Source of the DNA: Candidatus Omnitrophota bacterium
Lineage (GTDB): Bacteria > Omnitrophota > Gorgyraeia > Aquiviventales > Aquiviventaceae
Direction of reading: 5' to 3'
Length of the DNA: 64,000 bases
NCBI GenBank assembly: GCA_023247255.1
Contig: JAHFGV010000001.1
Location: 22,464 to 86,463 of the forward strand
Positions 15,268 through 54,524 of the stretch are shown piece after piece (position 1 is the stretch's first letter; each line of letters begins with the position of its first letter). Position numbers and translations under genes: made by a program. The notes beneath the pieces are model-generated. The model searched no databases. It was not told the DNA's origin and saw only the letters and a list, made by a program, of their open reading frames with translations.

Positions 15268-15400
15268 CACCCCGCCGTCGGGCACAGGCCTTAGGCCATG
15301 AGCCCAGTTGGCTGGATTCAACGAGCCGGGGGGTGGGATGTCGCCCCACGCGGGGCGTGTTCTTGGATGTCACGGGCTTACCCGTGGGGCTCCACAAAAC
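15268..15400 (+). repeat. REP/MITE-like element family 1, copy C (unit type 2), ends at exeA ATG
   Basis: ccccgccgtcggg...gcccagttgg...gggtgggatgtcgccccacgcgg...cacgggcttacccgtggggctccacaaaac. Confidence 0.8.
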
Positions 15401-16219: not shown

Positions 16220-16270
16220 TGTGACAGAAGCGACCCACGGGCAGGCCCGTGCTCTTAAAAGGAGGATTCC

Positions 16271-16930
16271 ATGAGTTTGATTGAGGAAGCCCTGCGTCGG
16301 TTGCAGGATCCAAATCCCAACGTGCCTCAGACAGAACCCGCAAAGAGCAAAACTCAATCGGTTCCTCATCATGACATCCCCACTCATCCTTCCTGGTCTG
16401 TGAGCTCAACGTCTCTGGGAAGGCTGCCAGATCCTTCAATCTTAAAACCGAGTAGGGTCCCTGTATTTGTGGGAGGACTTATCCTAGCATCGATGTTAGT
16501 GTTGCTCATTGCGGGGGCTTTCTGGATAGGGCGGGTATTGGGGCAGCAGCACTCGCAAGGCAATGCACCACAAGCAGAAACTACACTCATGGCGATTTCC
16601 CCTTCCGTAGGTGCGACACAACCGGCCTTAACGCTGGATGGTAAACGGGAACAAGCAAAGGCGCTGGAAGATCCGGCTAAAGGAAGTTCCACCCCTTCCA
16701 TCACCGAGCGTCCCTTTCGGATGAGCACGTCGTCACGTAAGGCTTCAGACCGTTCTTGGATTCTAAATGGCGTGATGGAAGGTCGGGGGCAACCTTATGC
16801 GATGATTAATGGGACGATTTTGGGTATCGGAGATCGTATTGGGGATGCAACTCTACTGAATATTGCGGATGGTTCAGTGATTTTGCGGGAAGACAATGGA
16901 GGGGAAACTACCCTAAAGGTTACTCCATAA
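16271..16930 (+). CDS. GspB/ExeB-like protein
   Basis: Cytoplasmic N-terminus, single TM (VFVGGLILASMLVLLIAGAFWI), S/T/P-rich linker, conserved C-terminal GspB-type domain (INGTILGIGDRIGDATLLNIADGSVILREDNGGETTLKV). Confidence 0.6.
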   Translation: MSLIEEALRRLQDPNPNVPQTEPAKSKTQSVPHHDIPTHPSWSVSSTSLGRLPDPSILKPSRVPVFVGGLILASMLVLLIAGAFWIGRVLGQQHSQGNAPQAETTLMAISPSVGATQPALTLDGKREQAKALEDPAKGSSTPSITERPFRMSTSSRKASDRSWILNGVMEGRGQPYAMINGTILGIGDRIGDATLLNIADGSVILREDNGGETTLKVTP

Positions 16931-34261: not shown

Positions 34262-34530
34262 TCGTCAATCGACCCCGTCATTGCGCCATGGCCGAAGGAT
34301 GTGAGCGACACGGCAGTGCAGAGCCGATTGGGTGGACGGGATGTCGCCCCACTCGAAGCGGACTTGCCGGTGCCACAGGCTTGTCCCGTGGGGCTCCTCC
34401 CCGCCATCGGGCCTCGACCTTCGGCTTTCGGCCCAGTTGGTTTGCTTAAGCGAACGGGTGGGCGGGATGTCGCCCCACTCGAAGCGGACTTGCCGGTGCC
34501 ACAGGCTTGTCCCGTGGGGCTCCACAATAT
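34262..34530 (+). repeat. REP/MITE-like element family 1, copy G (tandem doublet) filling the ocd-ychF intergenic space
   Basis: cccgtcattgcgccatggccgaagg...gggatgtcgccccactcgaagcgg...gtgccacaggcttgtcccgtggggctcctccccgccatcgggcc...gggcgggatgtcgccccactcgaagcgg...ggggctccacaatattt. Confidence 0.9.
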
Positions 34531-41656: not shown

Positions 41657-42490
41657 CTATGTTCCCTGTCTCACGTCCCATATCCCATTAAATAGCTCTT
41701 TCACTTTTACTTTAACGTCAGCAGCGCTCATCAAGGCCTCTCCGATTAAGAGTGCGTGGACACCGAGTCTGTGCATGCGCTGAACATCTGTTGCCGTTTG
41801 AATACCGCTTTCAGCCACCACCGTCGTCCCCGATGGAATGCTCGGGATGAGCCGTTCCGAGAGGCGAGTATCGAGGGTAAACGTCGTCAGATCCCGATGG
41901 TTGATACCGATAATCTTGGCATCCACTCTCACGGCTCTTTTAAGTTCTTCGTCGTTGTGAATCTCAACCAAAGCATCGAGCCCTAACTCTCTGGCGAGCG
42001 CTAGATATTCCGATAACTGCCCATCACTTAAAGCACGCACGATCAAGAGAACCGCATCCGCTTGATAGAATAAAGACTCATAAAGCTGATAAGCATCGAT
42101 GATGAAGTCCTTGCGCAAAACCGGAATCTCGGTGAACTGCTTAACGTCCCTTAAGAAATCCAGATGCCCGCCAAAGAAAGGCTCATCCGTCAGAACAGAC
42201 AAGGCGGATGAGCCTGCTTCCTCGAGGCTCTGAGCGAGGCTAACAGGATCGAATCTCTCCCGAAGCATTCCTTTCGATGGTGATTTGCGCTTCAGCTCCG
42301 CAATCAAGCAGAGTCTTCCCGGCTGGTAGATTGCCTGCCGAAAATCGCGCTCCCGAGCATGCCCCCCCACCCGTTCTTTGAGTTCTTCAAGAGATACCCT
42401 TTCCTTCACGCGTGCGATCTCTTGTCTTTTCCTTTCCAGAATCTTCTCAAGCATTGTCAATCGTTCGAACACCTTTGCGTCTTCTCCCAA
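41657..42490 (-). CDS. trpC: Indole-3-glycerol phosphate synthase
   Basis: IAELKRKSPSKG, LLIVRALSD, TIM-barrel IGPS motifs. Confidence 0.92.
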   Translation of the reverse strand: MGEDAKVFERLTMLEKILERKRQEIARVKERVSLEELKERVGGHARERDFRQAIYQPGRLCLIAELKRKSPSKGMLRERFDPVSLAQSLEEAGSSALSVLTDEPFFGGHLDFLRDVKQFTEIPVLRKDFIIDAYQLYESLFYQADAVLLIVRALSDGQLSEYLALARELGLDALVEIHNDEELKRAVRVDAKIIGINHRDLTTFTLDTRLSERLIPSIPSGTTVVAESGIQTATDVQRMHRLGVHALLIGEALMSAADVKVKVKELFNGIWDVRQGT

Positions 42491-42679
42491 TTTTTGTAGA
42501 CCCCCTTAGCTTTCTCAAACCCCGCTCATTCATCTCTCATCCGTAAGTAGCGAGGAAGACTCTCTTTCTCATCATCCTGTTATCGCTTATATAGTTACAG
42601 AGACTTTCGCGTCTCGCGTTTTCATAACCTATGGCTCAAAACGTCCCGTTCGTTCATCGGCTCGGTTATTCCTGGCCGT

Positions 42680-43597
42680 TCACACTTTGGCTGTTGGCCT
42701 CACTCGTAGAGTGTCACACCTCTTCAGAAGTTCTGGATTTACCTGACCCCCGAACTTCTCAAAAAAGCTTTCGAGATGAGGCATCGCTGACCACGCTCCA
42801 TATACTTGGTCATTCTCAAGTACGATTTGGGCAATCTCGTTCGCTTCCTCCGGCGTGAAAGTAGCGAACTCCAGCAAAGCTTTTGAGCTGGCACCTGCCT
42901 GATCATACGTATGACTCGCTTTTAAAGATCGGGTGGTACACTTCTTGATAGCGCCTTTCAGTTCAGGGTACTCAGACGCTATGCCGGAAAGCAATTCAAC
43001 ACACGTAGAATGAAAAGTGACTGGATGAGTTCCTCGCAAGGAAACCGCCTGACTTACTTCCATGAAACCATATGGGTCGACATCCACTTTGATGGGAGCT
43101 ATGACCATGCCCCGTCCGACAGCTATACCAGCTTCTTGGTCTGTCCATTCTGACTCATGAAAGCGTTTTGTTAGGATCGGGATGAAAATGTTACAAACGA
43201 CTGTCAGGTGACGCAGTATCACCTTTTGCCAAGCTGCCGAGGGGCGGATATCCTCGTGTGCCACAAATGCGCTGGCACCGAACCGCTCAAAGACGCTCTT
43301 TAGTTCTTTCGCAACTTCAACATCATCATGTTTATGGCTCAAGAAAACATGGATTCTATCATAAGACAACCGTCCAACTACAGGAGGTTGGACAGCTTCT
43401 CGTTCTTCAAATCTTTCAAGTTGGTCGACTCGTTTTTCCATCGCTTTATACCAAGCGTGACGGCTATCTCCGGGTGAAATCTCGCTCAACGCAGCTGTGA
43501 TATCTGTCCTGGTATATGCCTCAATTAATCCCTTGTCTCCTGTTTGGAGGAACTTATGGAAGGCAGCTATTATAGCCAGAGTTTTGTCACTAGCCAT
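42680..43597 (-). CDS. TIR-domain protein (80-aa helical N-terminus, TIR core, ~95-aa C-terminal domain)
   Basis: IHVFLSHKHDD...AFVAHEDIRPSAAWQKVI...IFIPILTKRFHESEWTDQEAGIA matches bacterial TIR (SxxxD ... SxW..E). Confidence 0.75.
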   Translation of the reverse strand: MASDKTLAIIAAFHKFLQTGDKGLIEAYTRTDITAALSEISPGDSRHAWYKAMEKRVDQLERFEEREAVQPPVVGRLSYDRIHVFLSHKHDDVEVAKELKSVFERFGASAFVAHEDIRPSAAWQKVILRHLTVVCNIFIPILTKRFHESEWTDQEAGIAVGRGMVIAPIKVDVDPYGFMEVSQAVSLRGTHPVTFHSTCVELLSGIASEYPELKGAIKKCTTRSLKASHTYDQAGASSKALLEFATFTPEEANEIAQIVLENDQVYGAWSAMPHLESFFEKFGGQVNPELLKRCDTLRVRPTAKV

Positions 43598-43633
43598 TGG
43601 GCAACTCCATTCCTGGAAGTAAACCCTACTACT

Positions 43634-44122
43634 TTACTTCCACACGATACCCCACTTATCAAGGAAGGGTTTAAGATCTTCTCCGCGTTTATTGATATTC
43701 AAGTGCCGCTTCGTATTTGTTGAATCGTGTCGTCTGCCCCCACGACCAGGAGTTTTCACCCAACGATCGTGGTCCTCTCGTAGCCACGTATCCACTTGAG
43801 CTGTTGGTACGATGTAGAATTGGAGATTTTTCGTCTTTTCGGTCAGGTTAACGAGAATCGTGAAGTCCGCTGTCTTACCGATGTCCCGGAATATTGTGCC
43901 ATCCTGCTTAACCACCCATTGCCAGTCATCGTACTCCTCGGATTTGGTCTTGACTCGAACCCGTACCATCTGCGTTCCCTTGCTAGCAAGAATATCAACG
44001 GACGGCGTGTTTCGCGGCGCAAGGGCGGCCACGATTCCCCTTTTCAGGAGTTCTGCGACAACGTAATGCTCACCAGAATTTCCGATGAGCGAACCCTGCC
44101 CCGCTTTAATTCTGCCTTCCAT
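43634..44122 (-). CDS. Small PD-(D/E)xK nuclease-fold protein (YraN/Hjc-like core)
   Basis: GNSGEHYVVAELLKRGIVAAL...SVDILAS...VRVRVKTKS = GxxGE...D...VxVK pattern. Confidence 0.6.
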   Translation of the reverse strand: MEGRIKAGQGSLIGNSGEHYVVAELLKRGIVAALAPRNTPSVDILASKGTQMVRVRVKTKSEEYDDWQWVVKQDGTIFRDIGKTADFTILVNLTEKTKNLQFYIVPTAQVDTWLREDHDRWVKTPGRGGRRHDSTNTKRHLNINKRGEDLKPFLDKWGIVWK

Positions 44123-44156
44123 CCTGAGATTTCACCCCCTGAATTTGATAACCTAC

Positions 44157-44228
44157 TTACTTATAACCGTTTAGCTTCTTGAGAATTTCCAGCGCCATCC
44201 CTAGTAACTTACACATACGGTCAGCCAT
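44157..44228 (-). CDS. 23-aa mini-ORF, paralog of 47560-47643
   Basis: MADRMCKLLGMALEILKKLNGYK; differences from its paralog are concentrated at synonymous third positions. Confidence 0.4.
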   Translation of the reverse strand: MADRMCKLLGMALEILKKLNGYK

Positions 44229-44487
44229 AAGTAATGACCGCGAGACGCTTCTTCATCTCAGAAATGCCTGTCCCTCGGTGCCTGGCACCTTTCAGGGCGG
44301 CATCTGTCTTACCGCCATTTACCGTCCTCTTTTCTGCTTCCATTCCAACCGCTTTCGTCATCCTAGTTTTTTAACCTTTCGCTGCTCGCATGCTCGGGCT
44401 TGAAGGCCTATGGTTTGCCGTTTCTTCTTTTCGAATTAGTCCTGCTTTAATAACCTCGTATCAGGCAATGAGTTCTGTTGTTGAATG

Positions 44488-45519
44488 TTATTTCTTTGGC
44501 GTGACCGAACCTAGTAATCGCCCAATTGCTTCTGTCGGAAGCTTCTGTGCACCAAGCGTATCTTCATCGTGTGGAAGCAAGCCGGAACTACCAAAAGCCA
44601 CCACTGCTTCCACCAAGTTTGCAAGAATTAAGTCACGCTGTTCAGGAGTTTGTGCTGATACCACGAATGCCTCGATGCTATTTGCAACTCTCTGCCGATG
44701 TTTATTGAGTTGGCTCATGTGGATATGTGCCCTCAACATCCTCATAGTAAAGGTAGTAATTGCCCCAACGGCAGATAAGATTACAATTCTAAGAGCCGTC
44801 TGATAGACGGCGATGTGCCATTCAGATTCTACTGGTAGCTTGATAAAGATAAATGCGATGGCCACTCCGAAGAAAGCGATGATTGCGAACGCACTCAACC
44901 AACCCCATAGCTTTATGTCTCTCGATAGTTCAATCTGAGCTTCCTTGAATTGCCGCTGTGCTTCTTGAACAGAGATTTTAGTCGCTGTCCGTCTTGCTTT
45001 CGTCTCAATTTCCTCGGCAAGTTTCTTGGCTTCGTCTATAGCTTTCCTTGCTTCTTCCTTAAGGGATTGGATAGTTTCTGATGATTCCTTTCTGAGTGAC
45101 TCGACTGTACGCTGGTATTCTTGTCTAATACCTTCATCTTCTAGGAAACCACGCTCTATGACCGCTGCGGCAACGAACGATGGCTCTGTTCGCTTAGCTT
45201 CCTCTAAGAATGTATCAATGTCGGTCAGAAAACTTGTCCTTCGCGCGATATATTGCGAGCTAGCAGAGCCAGCCTGATTCGAGAATTGGCTGTGAATTTG
45301 CTGAAGAACGTTCGTGATCTGATTAATCGGCTCATTGTGAACCTGTGGAGCGTATTGGATTGCTAATCGGCGCAATTTAGAGAGACGCTCCAACCGCGGC
45401 TGAAGCTCCTTTTCGAGAGACTCTTCACCGAGGGATTTCCTAAGAAGCTTTTCCATGTCAACCGAATTTACAGCATCGTCGGCTTTCTTCAAATTATCAA
45501 GGTATTGCTGAGATGCCAT
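44488..45519 (-). CDS. Coiled-coil protein with two adjacent TM helices (candidate membrane effector)
   Basis: ~220 aa charged helical N-terminus, TM1 LWGWLSAFAIIAFFGVAIAFIFI, TM2 IAVYQTALRIVILSAVGAITTF, ~75 aa C-terminus. Confidence 0.6.
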   Translation of the reverse strand: MASQQYLDNLKKADDAVNSVDMEKLLRKSLGEESLEKELQPRLERLSKLRRLAIQYAPQVHNEPINQITNVLQQIHSQFSNQAGSASSQYIARRTSFLTDIDTFLEEAKRTEPSFVAAAVIERGFLEDEGIRQEYQRTVESLRKESSETIQSLKEEARKAIDEAKKLAEEIETKARRTATKISVQEAQRQFKEAQIELSRDIKLWGWLSAFAIIAFFGVAIAFIFIKLPVESEWHIAVYQTALRIVILSAVGAITTFTMRMLRAHIHMSQLNKHRQRVANSIEAFVVSAQTPEQRDLILANLVEAVVAFGSSGLLPHDEDTLGAQKLPTEAIGRLLGSVTPKK

Positions 45520-45585
45520 TTTCTACCTCCTACACGACAACATTACTGTTGCCCTTATACATATTCCCAGTCTCCACCCCACACC

Positions 45586-45918
45586 TTAAGCATTACTTGC
45601 CTCAAAACCCATGACCTTCTCGTCGTCTTTTATCTCAGTACACGGTACCACAATTGAAGCAATAAAACCCCACTTCACCAAAGCAATAGAATCAAACTCT
45701 GTTTCCTGGGGCGGTCTTCCATCTGAGAAGACGATGTGTCTTTTTATTTTTGGGATGTAAACCCAAACACCAAGATCATCGACGCCTCTAATTTGCAAAT
45801 ACTGATTTTGCAAAACAATTCCCTGTTGATCCAAACCCAATTCCTGTGGCAGTTTTACGAGACACACGATAACATTCTTGTTGAGTAAGTCCTTGCCTAT
45901 AAACCCTATTTCAGGCAT
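45586..45918 (-). CDS. Hypothetical protein (110 aa)
   Basis: ORF-track ORF in AT-rich island, no recognisable motif. Confidence 0.45.
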   Translation of the reverse strand: MPEIGFIGKDLLNKNVIVCLVKLPQELGLDQQGIVLQNQYLQIRGVDDLGVWVYIPKIKRHIVFSDGRPPQETEFDSIALVKWGFIASIVVPCTEIKDDEKVMGFEASNA

Positions 45919-45928
45919 GATGGCTCCG

Positions 45929-46135
45929 TTACTTATTTGTTCTCGTTTTTACAAATTCCTCAAGATCCTCGGGCGCAATGCGCCATCTCTTTATCTTAGT
46001 CGCACGAATCTGCTTCAGATTGATGAGCTCACGCACTCTCTCCTCAGTGAGGTCCAGCTTCTCAGCGACCTTCGCCACCGTCAGGTAATTTTTGACATCC
46101 ATAACGCGATCCTCGTTCTCAGTTCTTCGGGACAT
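45929..46135 (-). CDS. Excisionase/AlpA-like HTH DNA-binding protein
   Basis: YLTVAKVAEKLDLTEERVRELINLKQIRATKIKRWRI (HTH_17 / Xis-type). Confidence 0.7.
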   Translation of the reverse strand: MSRRTENEDRVMDVKNYLTVAKVAEKLDLTEERVRELINLKQIRATKIKRWRIAPEDLEEFVKTRTNK

Positions 46136-47420
46136 TAAACACCATGACTGTAAGAATCAATTCTCTGCTGGCATCGCTCGGTTGGTGAAACATGTACTGG
46201 AAGGAAGTCTCATGCTGTTTGACGAGTTCTCTCTTGAAGCACGAATGAGTCTTCACTATCTCGGGGACTTGCGACAAGACGGCAGAGAAATCCTGATTCT
46301 TATTAAACAGAATTACTGCAATCTTCGTATCCCGCCAGCTTGCATATCTCAAGACCTGGTCTATCGCTTCGCTCAAGCTCTTTTGTCCGTGCCAAATTTT
46401 GCATTCCGCGATGAAGACATTTTTGCCTTCATAACGGATCAAAATATCGGTCTTCCCTGAATAGTTGAAGGCTTCACCCGTCGCCAATTCGTAATGGCTG
46501 TTGAGAGGAACCAAGAACTGCCATCTGAGGGATTCCTCGTCCATCTCACGAAACGCTTTGGGGCTTCGCTCCATAACAAGTGCCATCCGGGAGATCAAAT
46601 CCAGAATGTGCCTATACTCCCCTTCTTGGAGGATCGGCTCTCTCGTTACACTACCTTCCTGAATCTTCGGGGGTTCAATCAGAGGTTTTCGCCGAACCAC
46701 AGGAACGGTGTAAGTAGCCGCATCCTGTTCTCTTCGCTTTATAGGGATTCCGAGACCCTCCACTAAGCCTTCGTCCTTCAATATCCTTTCTTTTCTCGCA
46801 ACCAAAAGTCGCCTTGCCTCACCCTCTATGAACTTGTTGTGTTCTGCGGCATCGCGGGCCATAGTCTGTAAGTAGCCCTTGATCTGACCGATATCCTGCT
46901 CCATATCCGTCTTTATTTTGTCCGTGCTCATATCCTGGGGCAGACCCCGATACCGCAAATGTATCTCATTCCCCACCACGTTACCGCGGATCCCGCTTAA
47001 AGAAAAAGAGGACGGGGTGAAATGGAATAATTGTCCATCGCCTTCAAATGGGACAGCTATGGTGACGGAAATACCCTTTACAATATGCGGTTCGTCATCA
47101 TCGATGATCGCGTAATCAACACGCCCCCTCACATCCATGTCAATGTCTTCGGCGGGATGGGCAACCTTGTTGTCATCATGCAATACTGGTGTTTCTAAGG
47201 TATATCTGCCGACCAGATACTTGCACAGTTCTTCTTCGCTAGTTTTCAGCAAGTATTCACGACCCATACGCTGAACCTCGTCTTTCAAGCCTGCTTTGAG
47301 AGACTCCAACAAATTCCGAAACTCTCCCTTTTGGTGGAACAGTAATTCGTTACCTGCCATCTCACTTCGTACCCTTTGGCGTTTATAAAACTGTCCGTGC
47401 CTGCGCATATTCATTTCCAC
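46119..47420 (-). CDS. 433-aa protein with C-terminal PD-(D/E)xK nuclease motif
   Basis: GKTDILIRYEGKNVFIAECKIWHG (D...ExK) near the C-terminus; N-terminal two-thirds unrecognised. Confidence 0.6.
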   Translation of the reverse strand: MEMNMRRHGQFYKRQRVRSEMAGNELLFHQKGEFRNLLESLKAGLKDEVQRMGREYLLKTSEEELCKYLVGRYTLETPVLHDDNKVAHPAEDIDMDVRGRVDYAIIDDDEPHIVKGISVTIAVPFEGDGQLFHFTPSSFSLSGIRGNVVGNEIHLRYRGLPQDMSTDKIKTDMEQDIGQIKGYLQTMARDAAEHNKFIEGEARRLLVARKERILKDEGLVEGLGIPIKRREQDAATYTVPVVRRKPLIEPPKIQEGSVTREPILQEGEYRHILDLISRMALVMERSPKAFREMDEESLRWQFLVPLNSHYELATGEAFNYSGKTDILIRYEGKNVFIAECKIWHGQKSLSEAIDQVLRYASWRDTKIAVILFNKNQDFSAVLSQVPEIVKTHSCFKRELVKQHETSFQYMFHQPSDASRELILTVMVFNVPKN

Positions 47421-47559
47421 ACGATTCCATATTGCTCCATATTCTACTGCCAGCCGAAAGACAAGTCACCTGAAAGCTTGTCAACAGAAGGACAGAATTG
47501 CGTGCGGAAAAAGGCGTGCTCGAAAGAGGGCAATTCACGACGGATTTTTCGTAACCAAC

Positions 47560-47643
47560 TCACTCATAACCGTTCAGCTTCTTCAGCAGCCCCAGCGCCA
47601 TCTCGCGCCAACGGCACATACGGTCAGCCGTAGGTTTGGACAT
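47560..47643 (-). CDS. 27-aa mini-ORF, paralog of 44157-44228
   Basis: MSKPTADRMCRWREMALGLLKKLNGYE. Confidence 0.4.
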   Translation of the reverse strand: MSKPTADRMCRWREMALGLLKKLNGYE

Positions 47644-47651
47644 ATACCGAC

Positions 47652-48053
47652 CTATGCATTTTTGCCTTCCTGGGGAAGCTGTCGGAACACGGCTGCAAGC
47701 TCAGCTTTGCTTATCTTACCCGACGCCACCTTCAACATGGCGTCCTTAAGGTCTCCCGCCGGATCGGTAAGACTGACATCGTTCAGTTCCAGAAAGACCA
47801 ACGCGCAGGCTAACGCCGTCCGCTTGTTGCCATCGACGAACGGGTGATTCTGACAAAGATGATACGCATAGGCAGCGGCCATCTCATAGACGTCCTGGTG
47901 GAGCCATTCACCAGCGAACGAAGCCTCAGGCTGCGCAAGCGCTGATTGGAGCAGGCCCATGTCACGCAATCCGGCCTGGCCTCCGTAGCGTCTGAGTTGG
48001 TCGGCGTGTACTTCAACAACCTCGGCCAGCGTCAGGAATTGCGGCTCGCCCAC
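47652..48053 (-). CDS. doc: Doc (Fic-family) toxin; GTG start assumed
   Basis: HPFVDGNKRTALACALVFL Fic motif; GTG at 48051-48053 sits 8 nt after the antitoxin stop, GGAG upstream. Confidence 0.8.
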   Translation of the reverse strand: MGEPQFLTLAEVVEVHADQLRRYGGQAGLRDMGLLQSALAQPEASFAGEWLHQDVYEMAAAYAYHLCQNHPFVDGNKRTALACALVFLELNDVSLTDPAGDLKDAMLKVASGKISKAELAAVFRQLPQEGKNA

Positions 48054-48060
48054 GGCCAGC

Positions 48061-48288
48061 TTACTCCGCCAATTCCTTGAGCGTCTTGCCGTGGCGCCGA
48101 TTGACGGCCTCCAGGGCAGAACGGAAACGCCGTTCCTGCGTGGCATCCCTCAGGGGCGAAATGATAAGATTTCGGCCATCGGTGGACAACTCAAGCGGAG
48201 TTTTCGTGGTAATGTGGAGCAGTTCCAGCACAGCCTTATCGATGACCAGTGCTGTGCTGTTACCATGTTGCGTCAGATGTTTCACCAT
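48061..48288 (-). CDS. AbrB/MazE-fold antitoxin
   Basis: MVKHLTQHGNSTALVIDKAVLELLHITTKTPLELSTDGRNLIISP looped-hinge helix. Confidence 0.8.
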   Translation of the reverse strand: MVKHLTQHGNSTALVIDKAVLELLHITTKTPLELSTDGRNLIISPLRDATQERRFRSALEAVNRRHGKTLKELAE

Positions 48289-48545
48289 CTGAACCCCCTG
48301 TTTGACTGGTTATACAGTGTACTTACAATGTATCACCTCCATTGCGGCTCGTCAAGTGTCGCCACCTCAGCAGCGGCCAGCACCAGCCGAAATCCTTCCG
48401 CCAGGGCGTGAAACACCTGGCTGGTGTCGTGGATGGTGTCCGGCTCCGGTGCTTCAGAAAGTCCAGGTATTTTCGCACTATGGTCATCCATACGTCTAGA
48501 GGTAGAATTGTTTGGTCATCTTAAAAAATAGAACCGCCACCTCAT

Positions 48546-48962: not shown

Positions 48963-49955
48963 TTATGGGCTGACACAAAGGCTGCGCACGCGATCGAGGA
49001 GTTGTCTTGCCTTTCCACTCTCGATTGTCTGACGTGCGGACTCCATGCCCTCTTGGATCGTCGCTGCGCGATTGGAAACGTAGATCACACAGCCGGCATT
49101 GACTACGACGATGTCGCGGGCTGGTCCTTCCTTGCCATCCAGAATGTCGCGGGCAATCGCGGCGTTTCTTTCCACAGAACCTCCCTGGATGGCTGGTAGC
49201 AAAACACGTGGAATATCAAAGGCTCGGGTATCGAGCGTGGCGCGCGTGATACGACCGTCTCGGACCTCCAGGGTATCTGTGAGTGCTGTGGTGCTGATCT
49301 CATCCAAACCATCGCGACCATGGACAACCATTCCATGCTGAACACCCAGTCGGCTGATGGCTTCTGCCATCGGCTGCAATAACCGCTCGTCGGAGACTCC
49401 CACCAATTGAAATGCCAGCGCTGCCGGATTCGCCAATGGGCCGATGAGATTGAATAGAGTGCGTATTCCCAGTTCCTTTCGGATACCTGCGACGCCTTTC
49501 ATCGCCGGATGAAAAATCGGGGCAAAACAGAACCCGAATCCCAACGTTTCCACACAGTGGGCCACCTGCTTGGGTGAAGCCGATAGATTAACGCCCATGG
49601 CCTCCAAAACATCGGCACTGCCGCAGCGGCTGGATGCTGCGCGGTTTCCGTGTTTGACGATTCGTACGCCGCTAGCGGCGGCCACCAGCGCAGCAAGTGT
49701 GGAAACGTTCACGGTTTGTTGTTTGTCTCCACCCGTGCCGCAGGTATCACAGAGATTCTGCGTATTTGTCAAGGGCAGGCGCACTGCATGGGCTCGCAGG
49801 ACTTCAACCGCAACAGCTATCTCCTGTGACGTTTCTCCCCGTTTTGCCAGCGTTTGGAGGAAAATCCGCGTGGATTCGGCAGGGTAGCTGCCAGTCATGA
49901 TCTGGGTCATGACCTGGCGCATCGCTTCGGCGGGTAAGGGCTGCTCGAAGTCCAT
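48963..49955 (-). CDS. trpD: Anthranilate phosphoribosyltransferase
   Basis: CDTCGTGGDKQQTVNVSTLAALVAAASG. Confidence 0.95.
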   Translation of the reverse strand: MDFEQPLPAEAMRQVMTQIMTGSYPAESTRIFLQTLAKRGETSQEIAVAVEVLRAHAVRLPLTNTQNLCDTCGTGGDKQQTVNVSTLAALVAAASGVRIVKHGNRAASSRCGSADVLEAMGVNLSASPKQVAHCVETLGFGFCFAPIFHPAMKGVAGIRKELGIRTLFNLIGPLANPAALAFQLVGVSDERLLQPMAEAISRLGVQHGMVVHGRDGLDEISTTALTDTLEVRDGRITRATLDTRAFDIPRVLLPAIQGGSVERNAAIARDILDGKEGPARDIVVVNAGCVIYVSNRAATIQEGMESARQTIESGKARQLLDRVRSLCVSP

Positions 49956-49956
49956 C

Positions 49957-50556
49957 CTATCGATGAGAAGGCCGGCGTTTGTGAAAGTCCCTCACCAGGC
50001 GTAGGAAATTCCGCAACAGATCCTTGCCCTGTGTGGTGAGGATGGACTCCGGGTGAAACTGCACGCCATATACAGGCAGATGGCGATGTTGGAGTCCCAT
50101 GATTTCGCGCTGAATCGTCCAGGCCGTAACGCGGAGTGTCTTGGGTAGAGTCTCTCGACGCACGATCAACGAATGATAGCGGGTGGCTTCAAAAGGATTG
50201 GGAAGTTTTCGGAACAGTCCGGTCCGTATGTGATAGATTGCGGAAGTCTTACCGTGCATGGGCCGTCTGGCACGGACCACGTGGCCTCCGAAGACCTCGC
50301 CGATGCATTGGTGGCCCAGGCATACGCCAAGAATAGGGGTGGATGCTGCGAAGGTTTTGATGAGGTCATTAGATATCCCAGCATCGGAAGGGTTGCCTGG
50401 CCCAGGAGAGATGACAATGCTCGACGGTTTGAGTCGCCGGATGCCCTTTAAGGTGATTTGATCGTTGCGCTTGACCACCAGTTCCTCACCCAATTCTCCC
50501 AAGTATTGGACGAGGTTGTAAGTGAACGAGTCGTAATTGTCGATCATGAGGATCAT
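49957..50556 (-). CDS. trpG: Anthranilate synthase component II (glutamine amidotransferase)
   Basis: [12 protein letters not shown] catalytic Cys. Confidence 0.95.
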
Positions 50557-50574: not shown

Positions 50575-50690
50575 ATTTGCGCGTTGGCGCGAGTGTGCAT
50601 GTTAACGTTTCTACCTGTGCAATGGGACAGCTTGAAGCTTGTTAACTCGCGCACTCGCAAACCCACTAACGCGCTAACTCGCCAACACGC
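50575..50690 (-). promoter_or_regulatory. Structured trpE-trpG intergenic element (long imperfect inverted repeat)
   Basis: gcgcgttggcgcgagtgtgcatgttaac ... gttaactcgcgcactcgc ... ctcgccaacacgc. Confidence 0.35.
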
Positions 50691-52186
50691 TAACCCTTTC
50701 GTCGTTCCGCCAACTCAATGGCTTGGAGCATGCCTTTGGCCTTGTTGATCGTCTCTTGATATTCCCGATCGGGTTGGGAATCCGCGACGATACCGGCACC
50801 TGCTTGAATATAAGCGTGACGATCTTTAACCAGGATGGTGCGGATCGTGATGCACGCATCGAGGTTTCCGGAGAAGCTGAAATAGCCGACGGCTCCGGCG
50901 TAAATGCCCCGATCTTGCCGCTCCAACTGGGCAATAATTTCCATAGCCCTGACTTTAGGAGCACCGGTGACGGTTCCTGCCGGGAACGTGGCACGCAAGG
51001 CGTCGAAAGCTGTTTTTCCTGAACGCAGCTTACCTGTCACCCCGCTGACTAGATGCAGAACATGCGAGTATTTCTCAACGATCATCAGCTCCGGGGTGCG
51101 AACCGATCCTACCTGGGCCACTCGACCCAGATCGTTGCGTCCCAAATCCACGAGCATGAGATGTTCGGCGCGTTCCTTGGGACTTGTGCGCAACTGATGA
51201 ATCAGGCGCTCATCCTCACGTTCACTCTTACCCCTGGGTCGAGTGCCGGCAATGGGCCGGGTTTCCAGAAGACCTTCTTCGCAGCGGATGAGCATTTCCG
51301 GAGAAGATCCGACCAGAGACAGGTTTCCTAGACGTAAAAAGAACATATAGGGAGACGGATTGAGCGATCGCAGGGAACGGTAAACTTTCAAGGGTTCGCA
51401 ATCCAAGCGTCTCTCAAAACGTTGAGAAAGAACGACCTGGATGATCTCACCTGAGCGGATCGCTTGCTTGGCCTGGTGGACCATGCTCACAAACTCTTCA
51501 CGACTCATGCTGGACTGAAAGGGCTTCGAGACAGAGGGAATACTTTGTTTTCTCCGGGTATCTGGAAGGCTTCGGGAAAGTTTCCGGGCCATGGCGTGTA
51601 TGGTTTCAACCGCCTTTCGGTAGGCAAGCCGCGGCGCATGCGTCTGGGTTTGGGCGTTGGCCACCAACAATAGCTTATGTTGGGCATGGTCGAAAATGGC
51701 CATTGTCTGGGTCAGCATCAGCATGATGTCCGGCAGGCGCAAGTCATTTTCTCGATGGGTAGGCAGACGTTCCAAGAATCGCACGACGTTATATCCGAGA
51801 TAGCCGACCCATCCTCCGCAAAACCGCGGCAGTCCCTCAACAGGCACAAAACGAATGGGTGCCGTCAGGCGTTCGATTTCCTTGAGGGGATCCGGCACAT
51901 TTTCAAAACGCCGCGTTTGGCGAGTGCCCTGCCCGAATGTTGTGAGATCGACGTTTCTGCCGCTGCTGGTGAAAAGCATCTGCGGGCTGCTACCCAGGAA
52001 TGAAAAACGCGCGACTTTTTCTGTTCCCTCTACCGATTCGAGCAGATAGCTGAGCCGGCCGTCGTCCAGTTTCATAAACGCGCTCACAGGCGTTTCCAAA
52101 TCAGCCAGCATCGTCCCGTAGACAGGAATAACATTTCCCTGTTTTGCTAAACGGATGAACTCAACTTCTGATGGTTGAATCTTCAT
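50690..52186 (-). CDS. trpE: Anthranilate synthase component I
   Basis: LSYLLESVEG N-terminus, chorismate-binding C-terminus GAVGYFSFSG. Confidence 0.95.
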   Translation of the reverse strand: MKIQPSEVEFIRLAKQGNVIPVYGTMLADLETPVSAFMKLDDGRLSYLLESVEGTEKVARFSFLGSSPQMLFTSSGRNVDLTTFGQGTRQTRRFENVPDPLKEIERLTAPIRFVPVEGLPRFCGGWVGYLGYNVVRFLERLPTHRENDLRLPDIMLMLTQTMAIFDHAQHKLLLVANAQTQTHAPRLAYRKAVETIHAMARKLSRSLPDTRRKQSIPSVSKPFQSSMSREEFVSMVHQAKQAIRSGEIIQVVLSQRFERRLDCEPLKVYRSLRSLNPSPYMFFLRLGNLSLVGSSPEMLIRCEEGLLETRPIAGTRPRGKSEREDERLIHQLRTSPKERAEHLMLVDLGRNDLGRVAQVGSVRTPELMIVEKYSHVLHLVSGVTGKLRSGKTAFDALRATFPAGTVTGAPKVRAMEIIAQLERQDRGIYAGAVGYFSFSGNLDACITIRTILVKDRHAYIQAGAGIVADSQPDREYQETINKAKGMLQAIELAERRKG

Positions 52187-52192
52187 AACAGG

Positions 52193-52837
52193 TCACAGGT
52201 TCTTTGAATTAAACGGAAACCATGTTTGTAAAAGTGTGCGGAGGCGCACAAACGATTCATCCTGGCACCGATCCAAACTGACCCTTTCGGCAAGCTGTCG
52301 ATACAGAGAAGATGAGCGTGGAATACTGACTTGTTTCAATGCTGTTTCAAGGGCCCTCCGTGGTTCTTGAGGTTTTCTGTCAGACCCTTTCCATAATTCC
52401 TGATGTTGTAGCCAATTTCGTAATGTGGGTGTTCTGCCTTTCCATCCTAAGACGGCATCTACCTCGCTTGAATCACTCCATACCCACACTTCCAATTCAG
52501 GGTTGATAACGAGCACTTCCGCACGCTCATCCCACCCATTATTAGCGAGCCTAGCTTTTAGATTAGCTTCGATTTCCTGGACACCCGAAGTTTCTTGGCC
52601 ACAGCCTTTAGCATCAAATACCACCAGTGCTCGCTTAGCCTTTTTAAAGTAGAAACGCAATACCTCAGGGGCTTCCTTAAAGCATCCAGGGTCTCGGTGG
52701 AAATTTACTAGAATCTCGTATCGAATGGACCGAATACCCAGGCTTCTTTGACGTGTGGAGATGAGTCCTTCGAAAACTTCTCGTTCATCAGTTCCTGGAA
52801 CAAGCAAGATAAGATCGAGCGGAGATTCAGCATTCAT
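52193..52837 (-). CDS. DUF4276-like (TOPRIM-like) protein, partner of the upstream ABC/AAA_21 ATPase
   Basis: N-terminal LILLVPGTDEREVFEGLI resembles the DUF4276/TOPRIM start (VEGxTE); 4-nt overlap with the ATPase stop. Confidence 0.55.
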   Translation of the reverse strand: MNAESPLDLILLVPGTDEREVFEGLISTRQRSLGIRSIRYEILVNFHRDPGCFKEAPEVLRFYFKKAKRALVVFDAKGCGQETSGVQEIEANLKARLANNGWDERAEVLVINPELEVWVWSDSSEVDAVLGWKGRTPTLRNWLQHQELWKGSDRKPQEPRRALETALKQVSIPRSSSLYRQLAERVSLDRCQDESFVRLRTLLQTWFPFNSKNL

Positions 52838-54093
52838 CCGAGAACGCCTGTTGCAAATAGCGTCCCAAGATCAATGCCTCTTCGCCAATCTCGTAACATC
52901 GGATGTTCGCTTCCACGGACGATATCCGTAGCACCTCCGCTGCTACGAGCGAAACAAAGAATTTGCTCAGGCTCAGCAAGGGAGAGGATCACGGGTGAGT
53001 GGCTGGCGCACAGAATTTGGTTCTCATAAGTCGATGAGAGTGACTGGAATACTGCTTCAACGGCTCTGGGATGAATGCCATTCTCAGGTTCCTCAATGAG
53101 ATAAATGTGCCCTGCTTGATTGAGATAGGCCAACAGGGTGAGAGCGAGCAGTCGCAGTGTCCCATCGGATATCATCCAAGATGGCGCACTCAGTCCCGAC
53201 TGATAGGATAGGCGAAGATAGCGATGTTTGTCCTCTGGCCGTTCTACCGTATCGACCGTGTTCAAATCCGTAAGTGCCGTGCGCACGTGTCCAATCCAGC
53301 GTTCAAAACGTTCTGGGGATTTCCGTAGCTCCTCGATTACTAACGGTAGATTGGATCCATCAGGCTGAAATTCTTGAGGGCTTCCAGGAGGAGTAGGACG
53401 TCGCATCGCCTGGCTATTGAGAGTCAGACTCTGGATGCCTTCTATAAGTAGATGTTTAACCCAGATAGCCACAGGGAAACGATTTTCGTCCTCAGGCAAG
53501 TTAGCGAGCGCTGAGCGCTGGGGTCCCAATCTAAAGGGGTTGTTCCAATCTGTCGTTTCGGAAAAGAAGTAATCGTTACCGGACTCAGATTTTTTTGTCA
53601 CAACTTTTTTCCATCCTGAAGGGGTATGTTTTCCTTCGGGAAGGACAACAGGTGTGGTTATCACCTGAAGGGATGGAAAAAGTTCACGTTGGTTCTCTTT
53701 CTTTTCTTCCTCTTTAGGAGCAGGTTTTAACCAGAGCGTTTCGCTAAGGATGGAAAGCACATTCTTAACATCTAAACCTATAGCCATTTCATACCGTGCG
53801 CGTTCATACCCATTGCGTGGAAGTTGCCGCCGTCGTTCTTCAGGAATCTCCATTTCAACAGCGATTTCAAATTCTTTATTCTGTCCCATCCAGATCAGAT
53901 CTGACAGGTTGGGTGAGCGAGAATGGACCGCTTCCATGAGTCCATCTTTAAGCACATCACCGAGTAGACGGATGACATCCAGAAAAGTCGATTTTCCACT
54001 GGCATTGGGTCCTACAAGAACATGGAAGCTCTCCATTTGCTGGCGTACACGGTGTAAACAGCGATATCCCTCCACGTCAATCAGTCGGATCAT
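52834..54093 (-). CDS. AAA_21 / ABC-type ATPase (OLD/Gabija-GajA/AbiL-like), start at [10 protein letters not shown]
   Basis: Walker A VGPNASGKSTFLD, Walker B/D-loop IYLIEEPENGIHP, CASHSP; ATGA overlap with the hisI stop (tcat at 54090-54093). Confidence 0.8.
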   Translation of the reverse strand: MIRLIDVEGYRCLHRVRQQMESFHVLVGPNASGKSTFLDVIRLLGDVLKDGLMEAVHSRSPNLSDLIWMGQNKEFEIAVEMEIPEERRRQLPRNGYERARYEMAIGLDVKNVLSILSETLWLKPAPKEEEKKENQRELFPSLQVITTPVVLPEGKHTPSGWKKVVTKKSESGNDYFFSETTDWNNPFRLGPQRSALANLPEDENRFPVAIWVKHLLIEGIQSLTLNSQAMRRPTPPGSPQEFQPDGSNLPLVIEELRKSPERFERWIGHVRTALTDLNTVDTVERPEDKHRYLRLSYQSGLSAPSWMISDGTLRLLALTLLAYLNQAGHIYLIEEPENGIHPRAVEAVFQSLSSTYENQILCASHSPVILSLAEPEQILCFARSSGGATDIVRGSEHPMLRDWRRGIDLGTLFATGVLG

Positions 54094-54524
54094 TTTGAAA
54101 CTCCTTTGTACACTTTCTTTGGATCGAAAACCTTTCGACTCTGGACTTGTAATCTTCCTAAATGGGAGAGAATCCGAAAATAGCAACTGAAGTATCCGGC
54201 GTGGCAGGCGGCGACGCGCTGGCGGACGAAAAACACAAGGGATTTGCCTTCACAGTCAACGGCTATACTTTGGATGAACTGAATGTGTCCAGAGGTCTCT
54301 CCTTTACGCATGAGTGTCTGTTGGGAGCGTCGGAAAAGATAAACGGTTCCTGTCTGTAGGCTCTTACGCAAAGCTTCACGGTTGAGGTAGCACAGGGTCA
54401 GAACTTGCTTGCTCTTGGCATCTTGGATGATTGTTGGAATCAGTTCCTCATCGGAGAACTTCAAAACCGAAACGAGTTGGCGGAAACCGGCTAAGGCTTT
54501 GCCGCGCTGAAGGTTTGTCTTCAT
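54090..54524 (-). CDS. hisI: Phosphoribosyl-AMP cyclohydrolase
   Basis: [23 protein letters not shown]...[11 protein letters not shown]. Confidence 0.9.

What the first reader, a model, noticed from the sequence alone, without database searches (positions are those of the whole stretch)
44157..47643. Paralogous mini-ORFs (23 and 27 aa) each just upstream of a PD-(D/E)xK nuclease gene
44157-44228 (MADRMCKLLGMALEILKKLNGYK) and 47560-47643 (MSKPTADRMCRWREMALGLLKKLNGYE) share a ~75-bp homologous segment in the same orientation. Differences cluster at synonymous third positions (TGT/TGC, CTC/CTG, CTA/CTG), while ADRMC, MAL and KKLNGY are conserved, which points to selection on a peptide. Each sits 35-140 nt 5' of a nuclease-fold gene (43634-44122 and 46119-47420). 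They could be leader peptides, small regulators or antitoxins, or relic att-like direct repeats bracketing a 3.3-kb sub-element.
Basis: seen in the sequence. Interest (0 to 1): 0.7.

Follow-up and report, generated by a model that had tools for sequence, protein, structure and literature searches.

The report
Recombination-scar repeats, not peptide genes
The two look-alike mini-genes are most likely not genes but copies of a non-coding junction repeat, built on a fragment of the start of the tRNA-modification gene miaB, that separates small blocks of phage-defence and toxin-antitoxin genes and probably marks where those blocks were spliced in.

Summary
Two same-strand copies (44144-44232 and 47547-47635, minus strand) share 89 nt at 75% identity.

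The peptide reading is not supported. At least 30 related copies in metagenome contigs form a 100-140 nt DNA-level repeat. Its claimed reading frame is often broken by stops, frameshifts and 35-51 nt hairpin insertions. It shows no codon periodicity outside the part my search pattern fixed. Close homologues of the downstream defence gene lack it.

Every copy begins at one point, TAYGG-NTGA-CCGTA. Just upstream lies a fragment of a miaB-like gene: 5'UTR plus 7-11 codons ending T-Y-G.

The window holds four such junctions (about 48.5, 47.6, 44.2 and 42.55 kb). They split a 6.4-kb island between trpD and trpC into three cassettes: AbrB-Doc; PDC-S54 plus three genes; and a small nuclease-like gene plus TIR. 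A relative has trpD-trpC with no island. Other contigs carry arrays of the same junctions directly upstream of intact miaB.

Best reading: these are att-like scars of serial site-specific cassette insertion at the miaB 5' end, comparable to dusA islands or integron arrays. No recombinase was found, and the trp-operon location is unexplained.

The parts
48441..48519 (-). Junction J_D (probable). It consists of a MiaB-N-terminus-like relic MTKQFYL*TYG (ATG at 48519-48517), the core TATGGATGACC, and a degenerate arm of a third subtype (TGACCATAGTGCGAAAATACCTGGACTTTCTGAAG). It lies upstream of the AbrB-Doc pair.
   Evidence: About 85% identical over about 50 nt to L042:8609-8662, which lies in the array upstream of a real miaB and also precedes a TA pair. 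nhmmer E=1.8e-4. The type I arm HMM alone gives only E=1.2 here.
47652..48288 (-). Cassette 1 cargo: AbrB/MazE-type antitoxin (48061-48288) and Doc/Fic toxin (47652-48053).
   Evidence: Pfam MazE_antitoxin E=7.5e-4 and Fic E=4.9e-21. Gene calls in the identical contig L001.
47540..47651 (-). The 27-aa mini-ORF 47560-47643 lies inside it.
   Evidence: Arm HMM E=6.4e-31. Alignments A3 and A5. Junction table.
44488..47360 (-). Cassette 2 cargo: the 413-aa PDC-S54 defence candidate with a C-terminal PD-(D/E)xK-like domain (46119-47360), a 57-aa HTH_17 protein (45929-46102), a 110-aa protein (45586-45918) and a 343-aa coiled-coil/membrane protein (44488-45519).
44117..44330 (-). It holds a miaB-type 5'UTR with hairpin GGTGCCAGGCACC (44289-44277), a leader MKKRLAVITYG* (ATG 44256-44254, TGA 44223-44221), the core TATGG-CTGA-CCGTA, and a type I arm running to about 44117. 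The 23-aa mini-ORF 44157-44228 lies inside it.
   Evidence: The upstream half is homologous to the 5' region of the intact miaB in L036 (nhmmer E=5e-7 and 3.4e-8) and to the L022 fragment (E=9e-7). Arm HMM E=3.3e-23.
42680..44122 (-). Cassette 3 cargo: a 162-aa protein with weak PD-(D/E)xK similarity (43634-44122) and a 305-aa TIR-domain protein (42680-43597).
   Evidence: PDDEXK_5 E=0.0022, below cut-off; TIR_2 E=1.4e-11. ThsB-like by PADLOC, E=3e-6.
42521..42575 (-). Junction J_C, the right end of the island. It reads MMRKRVFLATYG, then the core TACGG, then a decayed miaB continuation TGAGAGATGAATGAGCGGGG (*EMNERG, against CQMNERD in real MiaB). It lies about 50 nt before trpC.
   Evidence: Junction table and sequence. 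nhmmer E=2.4e-4 to the equivalent fragment before carB in L035, plus weaker hits to real miaB starts in L040, L041 and L043.
48963..49955 (-). trpD, the left flank of the island.
   Evidence: Glycos_transf_3 in the L001 gene table. 53% identical to the trpD of L032, where trpC follows directly.
41657..42472 (-). trpC (indole-3-glycerol-phosphate synthase), the right flank of the island.
   Evidence: IGPS in the L001 gene table. 61% identical to the trpC of L032.

Best explanation
The two mini-ORFs are chance reading frames inside two copies of a conserved, non-coding 100-140 nt 'arm'.

Each arm starts at a fixed crossover-like core, ACNTAYGG-NTGA-CCGTATGT. This is an imperfect inverted repeat. 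Its left half is the T-Y-G codons of the MiaB N-terminus. Immediately upstream of each arm lies a displaced fragment of the 5' end of a miaB-like gene.

Such units are the junctions between small accessory-gene cassettes carrying toxin-antitoxin pairs and defence genes. I read them as the attL-type and attP-like hybrid sites left by serial site-specific insertion at the 5' end of miaB. In that reading each incoming cassette brings a fresh miaB 5'UTR and N-terminal codons. The previous ones are displaced, and the TGA in the core stops their translation.

In this window four junctions divide the 6.4-kb trpD|trpC island into three cassettes. The last junction keeps about 8 decayed miaB codons.

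Shown: the repeat family, the junction anatomy, the homology to miaB 5' ends, the arrays upstream of intact miaB, the lack of a coding or RNA-structure signature, and an island-free trpD-trpC in a relative.

Inferred: that a recombinase (tyrosine-type, acting in trans) makes the junctions, and that the arm is conserved because it carries protein-binding sites. GCTGA-like motifs recur in the core and the arm.

Not explained: how an array with miaB-derived ends came to lie in the trp operon, and in other operons in related contigs.
For: (1) Family. A metagenome scan with a degenerate pattern gave 20 loci where fewer than 1 was expected. nhmmer then found further copies not selected by the pattern: L024b, L027a/b, L031b, L044 x3 and L045.

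(2) Fixed start point. In 17+ junctions the sequence after ...[TS][YF]G GGN is TG(A/G)CCGTATGTG. Variation at ACN TAY GGN is synonymous in the miaB frame, and the upstream 7-11 codons are diverse MiaB-like N-termini: KRLAVITYG, KQVFLQTYG, KSIFLQTYG, TVYVRSFV and others.

(3) Homology of the copy A upstream half to the 5'UTR and start of intact miaB. L036 carries UPF0004, Radical_SAM and TRAM and is followed by miaA. nhmmer E=5e-7 and 3.4e-8.

(4) Arrays.
- L027: 3 arms plus 5 N-terminal fragments in 6.7 kb.
- L044: 3 arms separating Fic, RHH-Doc and SIR2 genes.
- L024: a HigB-XRE pair between two arms.
- L036: arm, then a 1401-aa gene, then intact miaB.
- L042: an array upstream of intact miaB with a different arm (78% over 97 nt between two copies) but the same core TAYGGC-TGG-CCGT.

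(5) Other continuations after the same TAYGGNTG exist: TTCCCTCG..., a C-rich hairpin, and real CAGATGAAC. This is as expected at a recombination crossover.

(6) The island is an insertion. Relative L032 (trpD 53%, trpC 61%, HDAC 67% aa identity) has trpD and trpC overlapping. Island GC is 44-49%, against 53-57% in the flanks.

(7) Right-end fragments with a miaB continuation sit directly before other housekeeping genes in related contigs: nuoG in L020, mnmA in L022, carB in L035, purE in L045.

(8) Precedent. Islands that target the 5' end of dusA replace it with island-borne sequence and leave a remnant 5' end. A MiaB-like rimO is cited as a mobile-element target (PMC4482086). Displaced fragments mark island ends (PMC4383910 abstract).
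Against: No recombinase gene was found in the island. None was found among 20 further window ORFs scanned with Pfam. None turned up in about 30 related loci; that test was weak (phmmer with one integrase, and a Pfam family count of 95 neighbouring proteins).

No excised circle, and no empty site with breakpoints exactly at the core, was observed.

The window island is not at miaB. At least five islands in other operons end in a miaB fragment that runs 21-36 nt past the core. Simple attB x attP integration at those operon sites does not predict this.

The 13-codon frame MALxLLKKLNGYE stays open in almost all copies, including several not forced by my pattern. Selection on a very small peptide is therefore not excluded.

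The arm's translation shows no detectable homology to MiaB (Pfam UPF0004 not hit at E<=1). The origin of the arm is unknown.
Confidence: 0.6

Rival explanations
1. The arm encodes a real micro-peptide: 13 aa MALxLLKKLNGYE, or 19-27 aa with the upstream ATG. It would act as a leader peptide, regulator or antitoxin for the downstream gene.
For: - The 13-codon frame is open in 22 of 23 scanned copies.
- Copies not selected by my pattern keep it with conservative changes: MVPKLLKKLNGYE, MVLKLLKKINGYE, MALKLLKELNGYK.
- Independent gene calls exist in the protein collection, for example MWRWREMALELLKKLNGYE.
- A versus B gives dN/dS 0.32.
Against: - The longer 19-codon frame is intact in only 13 of 23 copies. 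The rest have an in-frame stop, a frameshift from a 35-41 nt hairpin insertion, a non-ATG start or a truncation, yet are as well conserved.
- The 5' half, which my pattern did not fix, shows no third-position excess: 0.13/0.16/0.155 non-consensus by codon position. Its polymorphisms are C/W, R/H and E/K.
- Conservation continues about 45 nt past the stop in most copies and about 17 nt in the window copies.
- The stop position varies in 7 copies.
- There is no Shine-Dalgarno-like sequence at a usable distance before any of the ATGs (sequence).
- The peptide is absent upstream of close homologues of the 413-aa gene, and downstream cargo is unrelated from copy to copy.
- Most of the apparent codon-level conservation was imposed by my own search pattern.
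Confidence: 0.12
2. The unit is a portable cis-regulatory leader: the miaB promoter, 5'UTR and short leader ORF plus the arm. It would have been copied in front of accessory genes to drive or insulate their expression, with no role in recombination.
For: Always co-directional with the gene downstream and lying in the intergenic space. Copy A keeps the whole miaB-type 5'UTR, start codon and an 11-codon leader ending in TGA. The right-end fragments sit directly before housekeeping genes inside operons, where an outward-reading expression signal would relieve polarity. A promoter-like hit overlaps J_C.
Against: - No conserved secondary structure: RNAalifold -2.3 kcal/mol, and single-sequence z-scores of -0.8.
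- No Rfam match.
- No promoter-like hexamers inside the two arms.
- Many arms lack the 5'UTR part altogether; copy B abuts the Doc stop codon.
- This reading does not explain why all units break at the same TAYGGNTG point with several alternative continuations.
Confidence: 0.12
3. The copies are inert pseudogene debris. One decayed miaB 5' fragment would have been copied by segmental duplication or homologous recombination within a fast-evolving island, with no dedicated mechanism or function.
For: No recombinase was found. The copies are decayed to different degrees: stops in the N-terminal relics of J_D and J_C, truncated arms in L027a, L036 and L044.
Against: The N-terminal fragments attached to the arms differ from copy to copy in ways that keep a MiaB-like strand, so they came from different functional miaB 5' ends and not from one decayed copy. 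The arm is 75-90% conserved while flanks and cargo are unrelated. The same core with a different arm recurs in a second lineage, at the miaB locus itself.
Confidence: 0.1
4. The repeats are integron attC sites, making the island a CALIN-type cluster of integron cassettes.
For: The array architecture, the small promoter-less cassettes, the TA cassettes within arrays and the repeat length of 100-140 nt all resemble sedentary chromosomal integrons.
Against: The R''(RYYYAAC)...R'(GTTRRRY) signature is present in 1 of 23 copies. There is no extended imperfect palindrome: no consensus fold, only a 5-bp inverted repeat at the core. No IntI-like gene was seen.
Confidence: 0.02

Closest known systems
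Genomic islands and prophages that integrate in the 5' end of dusA through dusA-specific tyrosine integrases (Farrugia et al. 2015, PMC4482086)
   Same: The target is the 5' end of a tRNA-modification gene. The incoming element supplies a replacement 5' end. A remnant of the old 5' end is left at the far end of the island. Imperfect direct repeats (attL/attR) flank the element.
   Different: Here the target is miaB. The inserted units are 1-4 gene cassettes, not 30-50 kb islands, and they stack into arrays. No integrase is linked to them. Copies also occur away from the target gene.
tRNA/tmRNA-gene islands with displaced gene fragments, including tandem arrays (Islander, PMC4383910)
   Same: The target gene is split and then regenerated by island sequence. 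A displaced fragment marks the island end. Repeated use of one site gives several fragments in a row.
   Different: Here it is the 5' end of a protein-coding gene rather than the 3' end of a tDNA. The conserved element arm next to each fragment is about 100 nt and is shared between cassettes with unrelated cargo.
Integron cassette arrays and CALINs (attC-bounded cassettes)
   Same: Arrays of short, mostly promoter-less cassettes in one orientation, separated by a conserved repeat of about 100 nt. TA cassettes lie within the arrays. The recombinase is not encoded in the cassettes.
   Different: The attC sequence and structure signature is absent. The repeat is built on a gene 5' fragment, and no IntI or attI is present.
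Xer-dependent pdif modules of Acinetobacter plasmids (from my own knowledge, not checked here)
   Same: Small modules that often carry TA pairs. They are bounded by short recombination sites used by a recombinase encoded elsewhere.
   Different: pdif sites are 28-bp XerC/XerD sites in alternating orientation on plasmids. Here the repeats are direct, chromosomal and much longer, with no similarity to dif.

Membership tests
Small protein or leader-peptide gene family | The reading frame (start, no internal stops, stop) is preserved across family members. | tested here: not met
   The 19-codon frame is intact in 13 of 23 copies. Stops, frameshifts from hairpin insertions, truncations and non-ATG starts break the rest. 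Only a 13-codon core frame is generally open, and that part was largely fixed by my search pattern.
Small protein or leader-peptide gene family | Coding-type substitution pattern: excess variation at third positions, low dN/dS. | tested here: inconclusive
   No periodicity in the 5' half outside the pattern (0.13/0.16/0.155). A versus B gives dN/dS 0.32 on 22 codons, not significant. The 3' half is biased by the pattern.
Small protein or leader-peptide gene family | Conserved association with the gene it is supposed to serve. | tested here: not met
   Absent upstream of the 79% and 71% identical homologues of the 413-aa gene (L004-L009). Downstream genes differ from copy to copy: Shedu, DndB-like, AAA ATPase, RHS toxin, TA pairs, DUF6680.
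Integrative-island att sites at a gene end (dusA / tDNA type, tyrosine integrase) | A displaced fragment of the target gene at one end and a regenerated target at the other, as direct repeats. | tested here: met
   MiaB N-terminal fragments precede every arm. In L036 and L042 the array ends in an intact miaB whose 5' region is homologous to the fragments. In the window itself the last junction (J_C) has only a decayed 8-codon miaB continuation, with no intact miaB.
Integrative-island att sites at a gene end (dusA / tDNA type, tyrosine integrase) | A common core with imperfect inverted half-sites around a short overlap, at which all junctions break. | tested here: met
   T[AT]YGG-N4-CCGTA is found in 13 of 23 arms by strict match and is near-matched in most others. 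The same break point occurs with four other continuations and in a second arm family.
Integrative-island att sites at a gene end (dusA / tDNA type, tyrosine integrase) | An integrase gene next to one att site. | tested here: not met
   None in the island. None among 20 other window ORFs. None detected in about 30 loci; that test was weak.
Integrative-island att sites at a gene end (dusA / tDNA type, tyrosine integrase) | Demonstrated excision or integration: circular form, or an empty site with a precise junction. | not testable with these tools
   Only indirect evidence was obtained. L032 has an island-free trpD-trpC. Cassette content differs between L021 and L044 at one locus, without clean breakpoints.
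Integron attC / CALIN | R''(RYYYAAC) and R'(GTTRRRY) boxes plus an imperfect palindrome that folds as a hairpin. | tested here: not met
   The box pair is present in 1 of 23 copies. Consensus fold is -2.3 kcal/mol with 12 scattered pairs.
Structured non-coding RNA (Rfam families or a new motif) | Match to a curated covariance model, or a conserved structure with covariation. | tested here: not met
   No relevant Rfam hit in the region at E<=1, in the whole window, or in the 20 loci. RNAalifold found no supported helix. Fold z-scores are -0.8.

The most novel reading that the evidence does not exclude
This would be an undescribed, integron-like cassette system in an uncultivated bacterial lineage. 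A recombinase encoded elsewhere would use a site built into the first 11 codons of miaB. Cassettes of 1-4 defence or toxin-antitoxin genes, each carrying a P-core-P' site of 130-240 nt, would be stacked there. A portable 'platform' (miaB 5'UTR plus about 20 codons) would have been seeded in front of other housekeeping genes (trpC, nuoG, carB, mnmA, purE) and would collect cassettes there. That would make it a dedicated mechanism for building defence islands inside operons.
Probability: 0.3. Interest if true: 0.8.

Novelty: new variant of a known kind. Interest (0 to 1): 0.55.

Why it matters
How defence islands are assembled gene by gene is largely unknown outside integrons and a few hot spots. 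If these junctions are recombination sites, they define a cassette-accretion system with three notable properties. It uses a conserved housekeeping gene start as its docking site. It swaps that gene's N-terminus at every insertion. It carries defence candidates (PDC-S54, Shedu, DndB-like, SIR2, TIR) and TA pairs as unit cassettes.

The junction repeat would then be a practical marker for finding new defence genes in this lineage.

For genome annotation, the result is a caution. Paralogous mini-ORFs with apparently 'synonymous' differences can be recombination scars.

Tried and rejected
- **Pfam and NCBIfam on the two peptides and on read-through versions.** No hit at E<=10.
- **Genome-collection scan with ADRMC-x4-MAL codons.** Ten hits, all chance; none had the rest of the peptide. 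The source species seems absent from that collection.
- **Viral-contig scans.** Three patterns, no hits.
- **Plasmid and phage BLAST of the full junction.** No match.
- **The 46-aa ORF upstream of copy A as a Doc or antitoxin remnant.** No similarity. It is the miaB 5'UTR read through.
- **The arm as a frameshifted continuation of MiaB codons 12-45.** This was my own visual impression. Pfam UPF0004 is not hit by the arm translation, while a real 49-aa MiaB N-terminus scores 4.5e-16. Dropped.
- **The arm as the N-terminus of a longer parent protein such as an integrase.** A combined sense and antisense profile against 5.8 billion proteins found only 10 short ORFs of 19-73 aa at the same kind of locus.
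- **Structured RNA.** Rejected.
- **attC.** Rejected.
- **Arrays upstream of closer miaB relatives.** L040-L043 (70-77% identical MiaB) lack type I arms. L040 and L042 nevertheless carry miaB N-terminal relics, with a different arm in L042.
- **Organism name.** None of the source records carries one.

Full report
**1. What is in the window**

All genes around the finding lie on the minus strand. The finding sits in a 6.4-kb stretch of lower G+C (44-49%, against 53-57% around it).

This stretch interrupts a tryptophan operon. trpE (50690-52186), trpG (49957-50556) and trpD (48963-49955) lie on one side and trpC (41657-42472) on the other.

The island encodes, in order:
- an AbrB/MazE-type antitoxin and a Doc toxin;
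- a 413-aa protein;
- a 57-aa HTH_17 protein;
- 110-aa and 343-aa proteins;
- a 162-aa protein;
- a TIR-domain protein.

PADLOC identifies the 413-aa protein as the defence candidate PDC-S54 (E=2.8e-140) and the TIR protein as ThsB-like.

A related contig, L032, has trpD 53%, trpC 61% and the neighbouring deacetylase 67% identical at the protein level. There trpD and trpC overlap with nothing between them. The island is therefore an insertion.

**2. The observation**

Both mini-ORFs exist. The repeat is 89 nt at 75% identity and is far beyond chance.

The homology is not confined to the ORFs.
- It continues about 17 nt past both stop codons.
- Upstream it continues in a different frame.
- Differences fall 3/5/8 on codon positions 1/2/3, and dN/dS is 0.32 on 22 codons.
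- The 413-aa gene starts at 47360, not 47420.
- The nuclease assignment of the 162-aa protein rests on a sub-threshold Pfam hit.

**3. Is the peptide conserved where it should be?**

The 413-aa protein belongs to a large family: 2667 hits, and no Pfam domain among the 120 listed.

Loci encoding its 79% and 71% identical relatives keep the 413-aa + HTH_17 pair. They have no trace of the mini-ORF or of the 89-nt segment.

**4. The segment is a member of a DNA repeat family**

A degenerate scan of metagenome contigs returned 20 loci. nhmmer with a model built from them found more copies in the same loci and in two further contigs.

The alignment of 23 non-redundant copies (A5) shows a unit of 100-140 nt. 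Its consensus is ACNTAYGGCTGACCGTATGTG(C/G)C(G/A)(C/T)TGGCGC(G/A)AGATGGCGCTGGAGCTGCTGAAGAAGCTGAACGGGTATGAATAAGTGCTTCAGC..GAGCAGGAAATGGTAATGTGGCACCGGAAT.

The window copies share only the first ~90 nt.

Features that argue against a peptide:
- There is an in-frame stop in L022.
- Hairpin insertions of 35-51 nt lie in the middle of the 'ORF' in five copies. Three of them shift the frame.
- Some copies are truncated, two have CTG or GTG where the others have the upstream ATG, and the stop position is variable.
- The 19-codon frame is intact in 13 of 23 copies.
- In the 25 nt that my search pattern did not constrain, variation is equal at all three codon positions (0.13/0.16/0.155). The common polymorphisms are C/W, R/H and E/K.
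- No ribosome-binding sequence precedes any of the candidate ATGs.

One caveat remains. The last 13 codons (MALxLLKKLNGYE) stay open almost everywhere, including in copies not selected by the pattern. A very small peptide therefore cannot be excluded, and I carry it as a rival.

The family is not a known or evident structured RNA:
- There is no Rfam match.
- RNAalifold gives -2.3 kcal/mol.
- Single-sequence z-scores are about -0.8.

It is not an attC site either.

A profile search of 5.8 billion proteins found no longer protein that contains the motif. It found only ten ORFs of 19-73 aa called at the same kind of place.

**5. What precedes every copy**

Directly upstream of the arm there is always a short coding-like stretch that ends in (T/S)(Y/F)G followed by TGA:
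- MKKRLAVITYG (copy A)
- SVYVQTYG (copy B)
- MKKQVFLQTYG
- MTKSIFLQTYG
- MKKHLTIITYG
- MAKTVYVRSFV
- MGQSIVVRSFG, and so on.

This is the N-terminal strand of MiaB, which continues ...TYGCQMNERD. The variation at ACN TAY GGN is synonymous in the miaB frame but not in the mini-ORF frame.

In copy A the homology extends through the start codon into the 5'UTR. The sequence AAGGTGCCAGGCACCGAGGGACAGGCATTTCTGAGATGAAGAAGCGTCTCGCGGTCATTACTTATGG matches the region in front of the intact miaB of L036. nhmmer gives E=5e-7 and 3.4e-8. That gene carries UPF0004, Radical_SAM and TRAM and is followed by miaA, hflX and hrcA.

The 46-aa ORF upstream of copy A is simply this 5'UTR read in the miaB frame.

The break between 'miaB-like' and 'arm' is always at the same place: TAYGG-NTGA-CCGTA. 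This is an imperfect inverted repeat (ACNTAYGG / CCGTATGT) around a few central bases.

After the same TAYGGNTG other continuations occur in the same loci:
- TTCCCTCG...;
- a C-rich hairpin;
- ACCCTTGG...;
- the genuine CAGATGAAC of miaB.

In L042, two junctions upstream of an intact miaB carry a different arm, 78% identical to each other over 97 nt. It shares with the type I arm only TG(A/G)CCGT at the core.

**6. Arrays and cargo**

Several loci are arrays of junctions.
- L027 (6.7 kb) holds three arms and five N-terminal fragments. They separate a Shedu-like gene, a membrane methyltransferase-like gene and two unknowns.
- L044 has three arms separating a Fic gene, an RHH-Doc pair and a block with a SIR2-like gene.
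- L024 has a HigB-like/XRE pair between two arms.
- In L036 an arm is followed by a 1401-aa sacsin/NOV_C-type gene and then intact miaB. A BamHI-type RM system lies just upstream.

Elsewhere the cargo includes DndB-like, AAA_21, RHS-repeat toxin, IS630 transposase and DUF6680 genes. The link to 'nuclease genes' is therefore a link to accessory and defence cargo in general.

TA pairs often lie immediately upstream of an arm: Doc in the window and L044, PIN in L020 and L035, XRE in L024 and L032.

**7. The window has four junctions, not two**

Besides J_B (47540-47651) and J_A (44117-44330) there are two more.

- **J_C (42521-42575).** It reads MMRKRVFLATYG, then the core, then TGAGAGATGAATGAGCGGGG. 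This is a decayed CQMNERD continuation, ending about 50 nt before trpC. nhmmer gives E=2.4e-4 to the equivalent fragment in front of carB in L035.
- **J_D (48441-48519).** It reads MTKQFYL*TYG, then the core, then a third arm subtype. That subtype is about 85% identical over about 50 nt to a junction in the L042 array, E=1.8e-4.

The island thus reads: trpD, two small ORFs, J_D, AbrB-Doc, J_B, PDC-S54 plus three genes, J_A, 162-aa plus TIR, J_C, trpC.

The same kind of right end, a P-type fragment plus 21-36 nt of miaB continuation, precedes nuoG (L020), mnmA (L022), carB (L035), a DedA-like gene (L039) and purE (L045).

**8. Interpretation**

The anatomy consists of:
- displaced target-gene fragments in direct orientation;
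- one fixed break point with inverted half-sites;
- a conserved element-side arm shared by cassettes with unrelated cargo;
- arrays ending in the intact target gene.

This is the anatomy of attL, attR and internal attP-like junctions produced by repeated site-specific integration at a gene end.

The nearest documented case is the dusA 5'-end islands. [quoted passage not shown] The same paper cites a MiaB-like rimO as a mobile-element target (PMC4482086). tDNA islands show the same logic of regenerated target plus displaced fragment (PMC4383910).

The small cassette size, the stacking and the absence of a linked recombinase recall integrons. The attC signature is nevertheless absent.

I therefore regard the mini-ORFs as by-products of the arm sequence. 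The arm's conservation most plausibly reflects protein-binding sites, since GCTGA-like motifs recur in the core and twice in the arm. That last point is inference only.

**9. What remains open**

- No recombinase was found in the window or in any locus.
- No excision product was seen, and no empty site with exact breakpoints.
- The miaB-derived ends in the trp operon and in other operons are not predicted by simple attB x attP integration. Either a miaB-5' 'platform' has itself been moved, or whole arrays have been transplanted.
- The 13-codon frame is suspiciously well kept.
Some MiaB relatives at 61-69% identity are labelled Omnitrophota MAGs. The arm was not found in 185,579 species-representative genomes with one pattern, nor in viral, plasmid or phage collections.

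**10. Verdict**

The peptide interpretation is not supported.

The feature is a new variant of a known kind of system: gene-end-targeted integration with cassette accretion. It is of moderate to good interest for people who study defence islands and mobile elements.

Noticed in passing
window 10998-11070, 15322-15394, 19728-19800, 19854-19926, 34325-34397, 34451-34523: A second, unrelated intergenic repeat family of 73-119 nt. Some copies occur as pairs 126 nt apart. It has a GC-rich hairpin (CCACAGGCTTGTCCCGTGG) and gives no Rfam match.
   Followed up: no
window 52193-54186 (-): A second small defence island wedged between hisI and trpE. It is a two-gene system matching PADLOC HEC-01A (E=3e-44; AAA_15/OLD-like ATPase) and HEC-01B/mad4. 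No miaB-type junction was detected beside it.
   Followed up: partly
window 45929-47360 (-); L004-L009: The PDC-S54 protein (413 aa) is followed by a 57-62 aa HTH_17 protein in all loci but L009. In other lineages the pair heads islands with Vsr+Dcm+HATPase+type IIG RM genes, or with GmrSD plus large helicases. Its C-terminal domain is restriction-endonuclease-like.
   Followed up: partly
L025:4205-4390, L026:114-309, L029:272-449, L030:491-675, L032:6663-6873; L027:1280-1328; L039 near 5287: A GC-rich palindromic unit of 35-51 nt (GCCCCGS..GGTTTCG..CGAAACC..SCGGGGC, with compensatory changes between copies). It is inserted inside the arm in five copies and sits directly after the core in three other junctions. 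It may be a separate small mobile hairpin or an alternative arm.
   Followed up: partly
window 48333-48491 (-): A 52-aa ORF was called as a gene in the identical contig L001. It starts at the ATG inside the J_D core (TATGGATGACC). The homologous junction in L042 has TACGG and no such ORF, so the call is probably spurious.
   Followed up: partly
window 14395-16930: A DDE_Tnp_1 transposase fragment (14395-14973, -) lies next to two plus-strand genes in an otherwise minus-strand region. One is an AAA_22 ATPase (15308-16219); the other is an unassigned 219-aa ORF (16271-16930).
   Followed up: no
L022 and L025: Two related contigs share a 602-aa gene at 76% identity. One carries its junction-bounded island downstream of that gene and the other upstream, which suggests independent insertions at different intergenic sites.
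   Followed up: partly
L033:7598-7684 (-): A c-di-GMP-I riboswitch (Rfam RF01051, 63 bits) lies in one of the related contigs. It is unrelated to the repeat.
   Followed up: no
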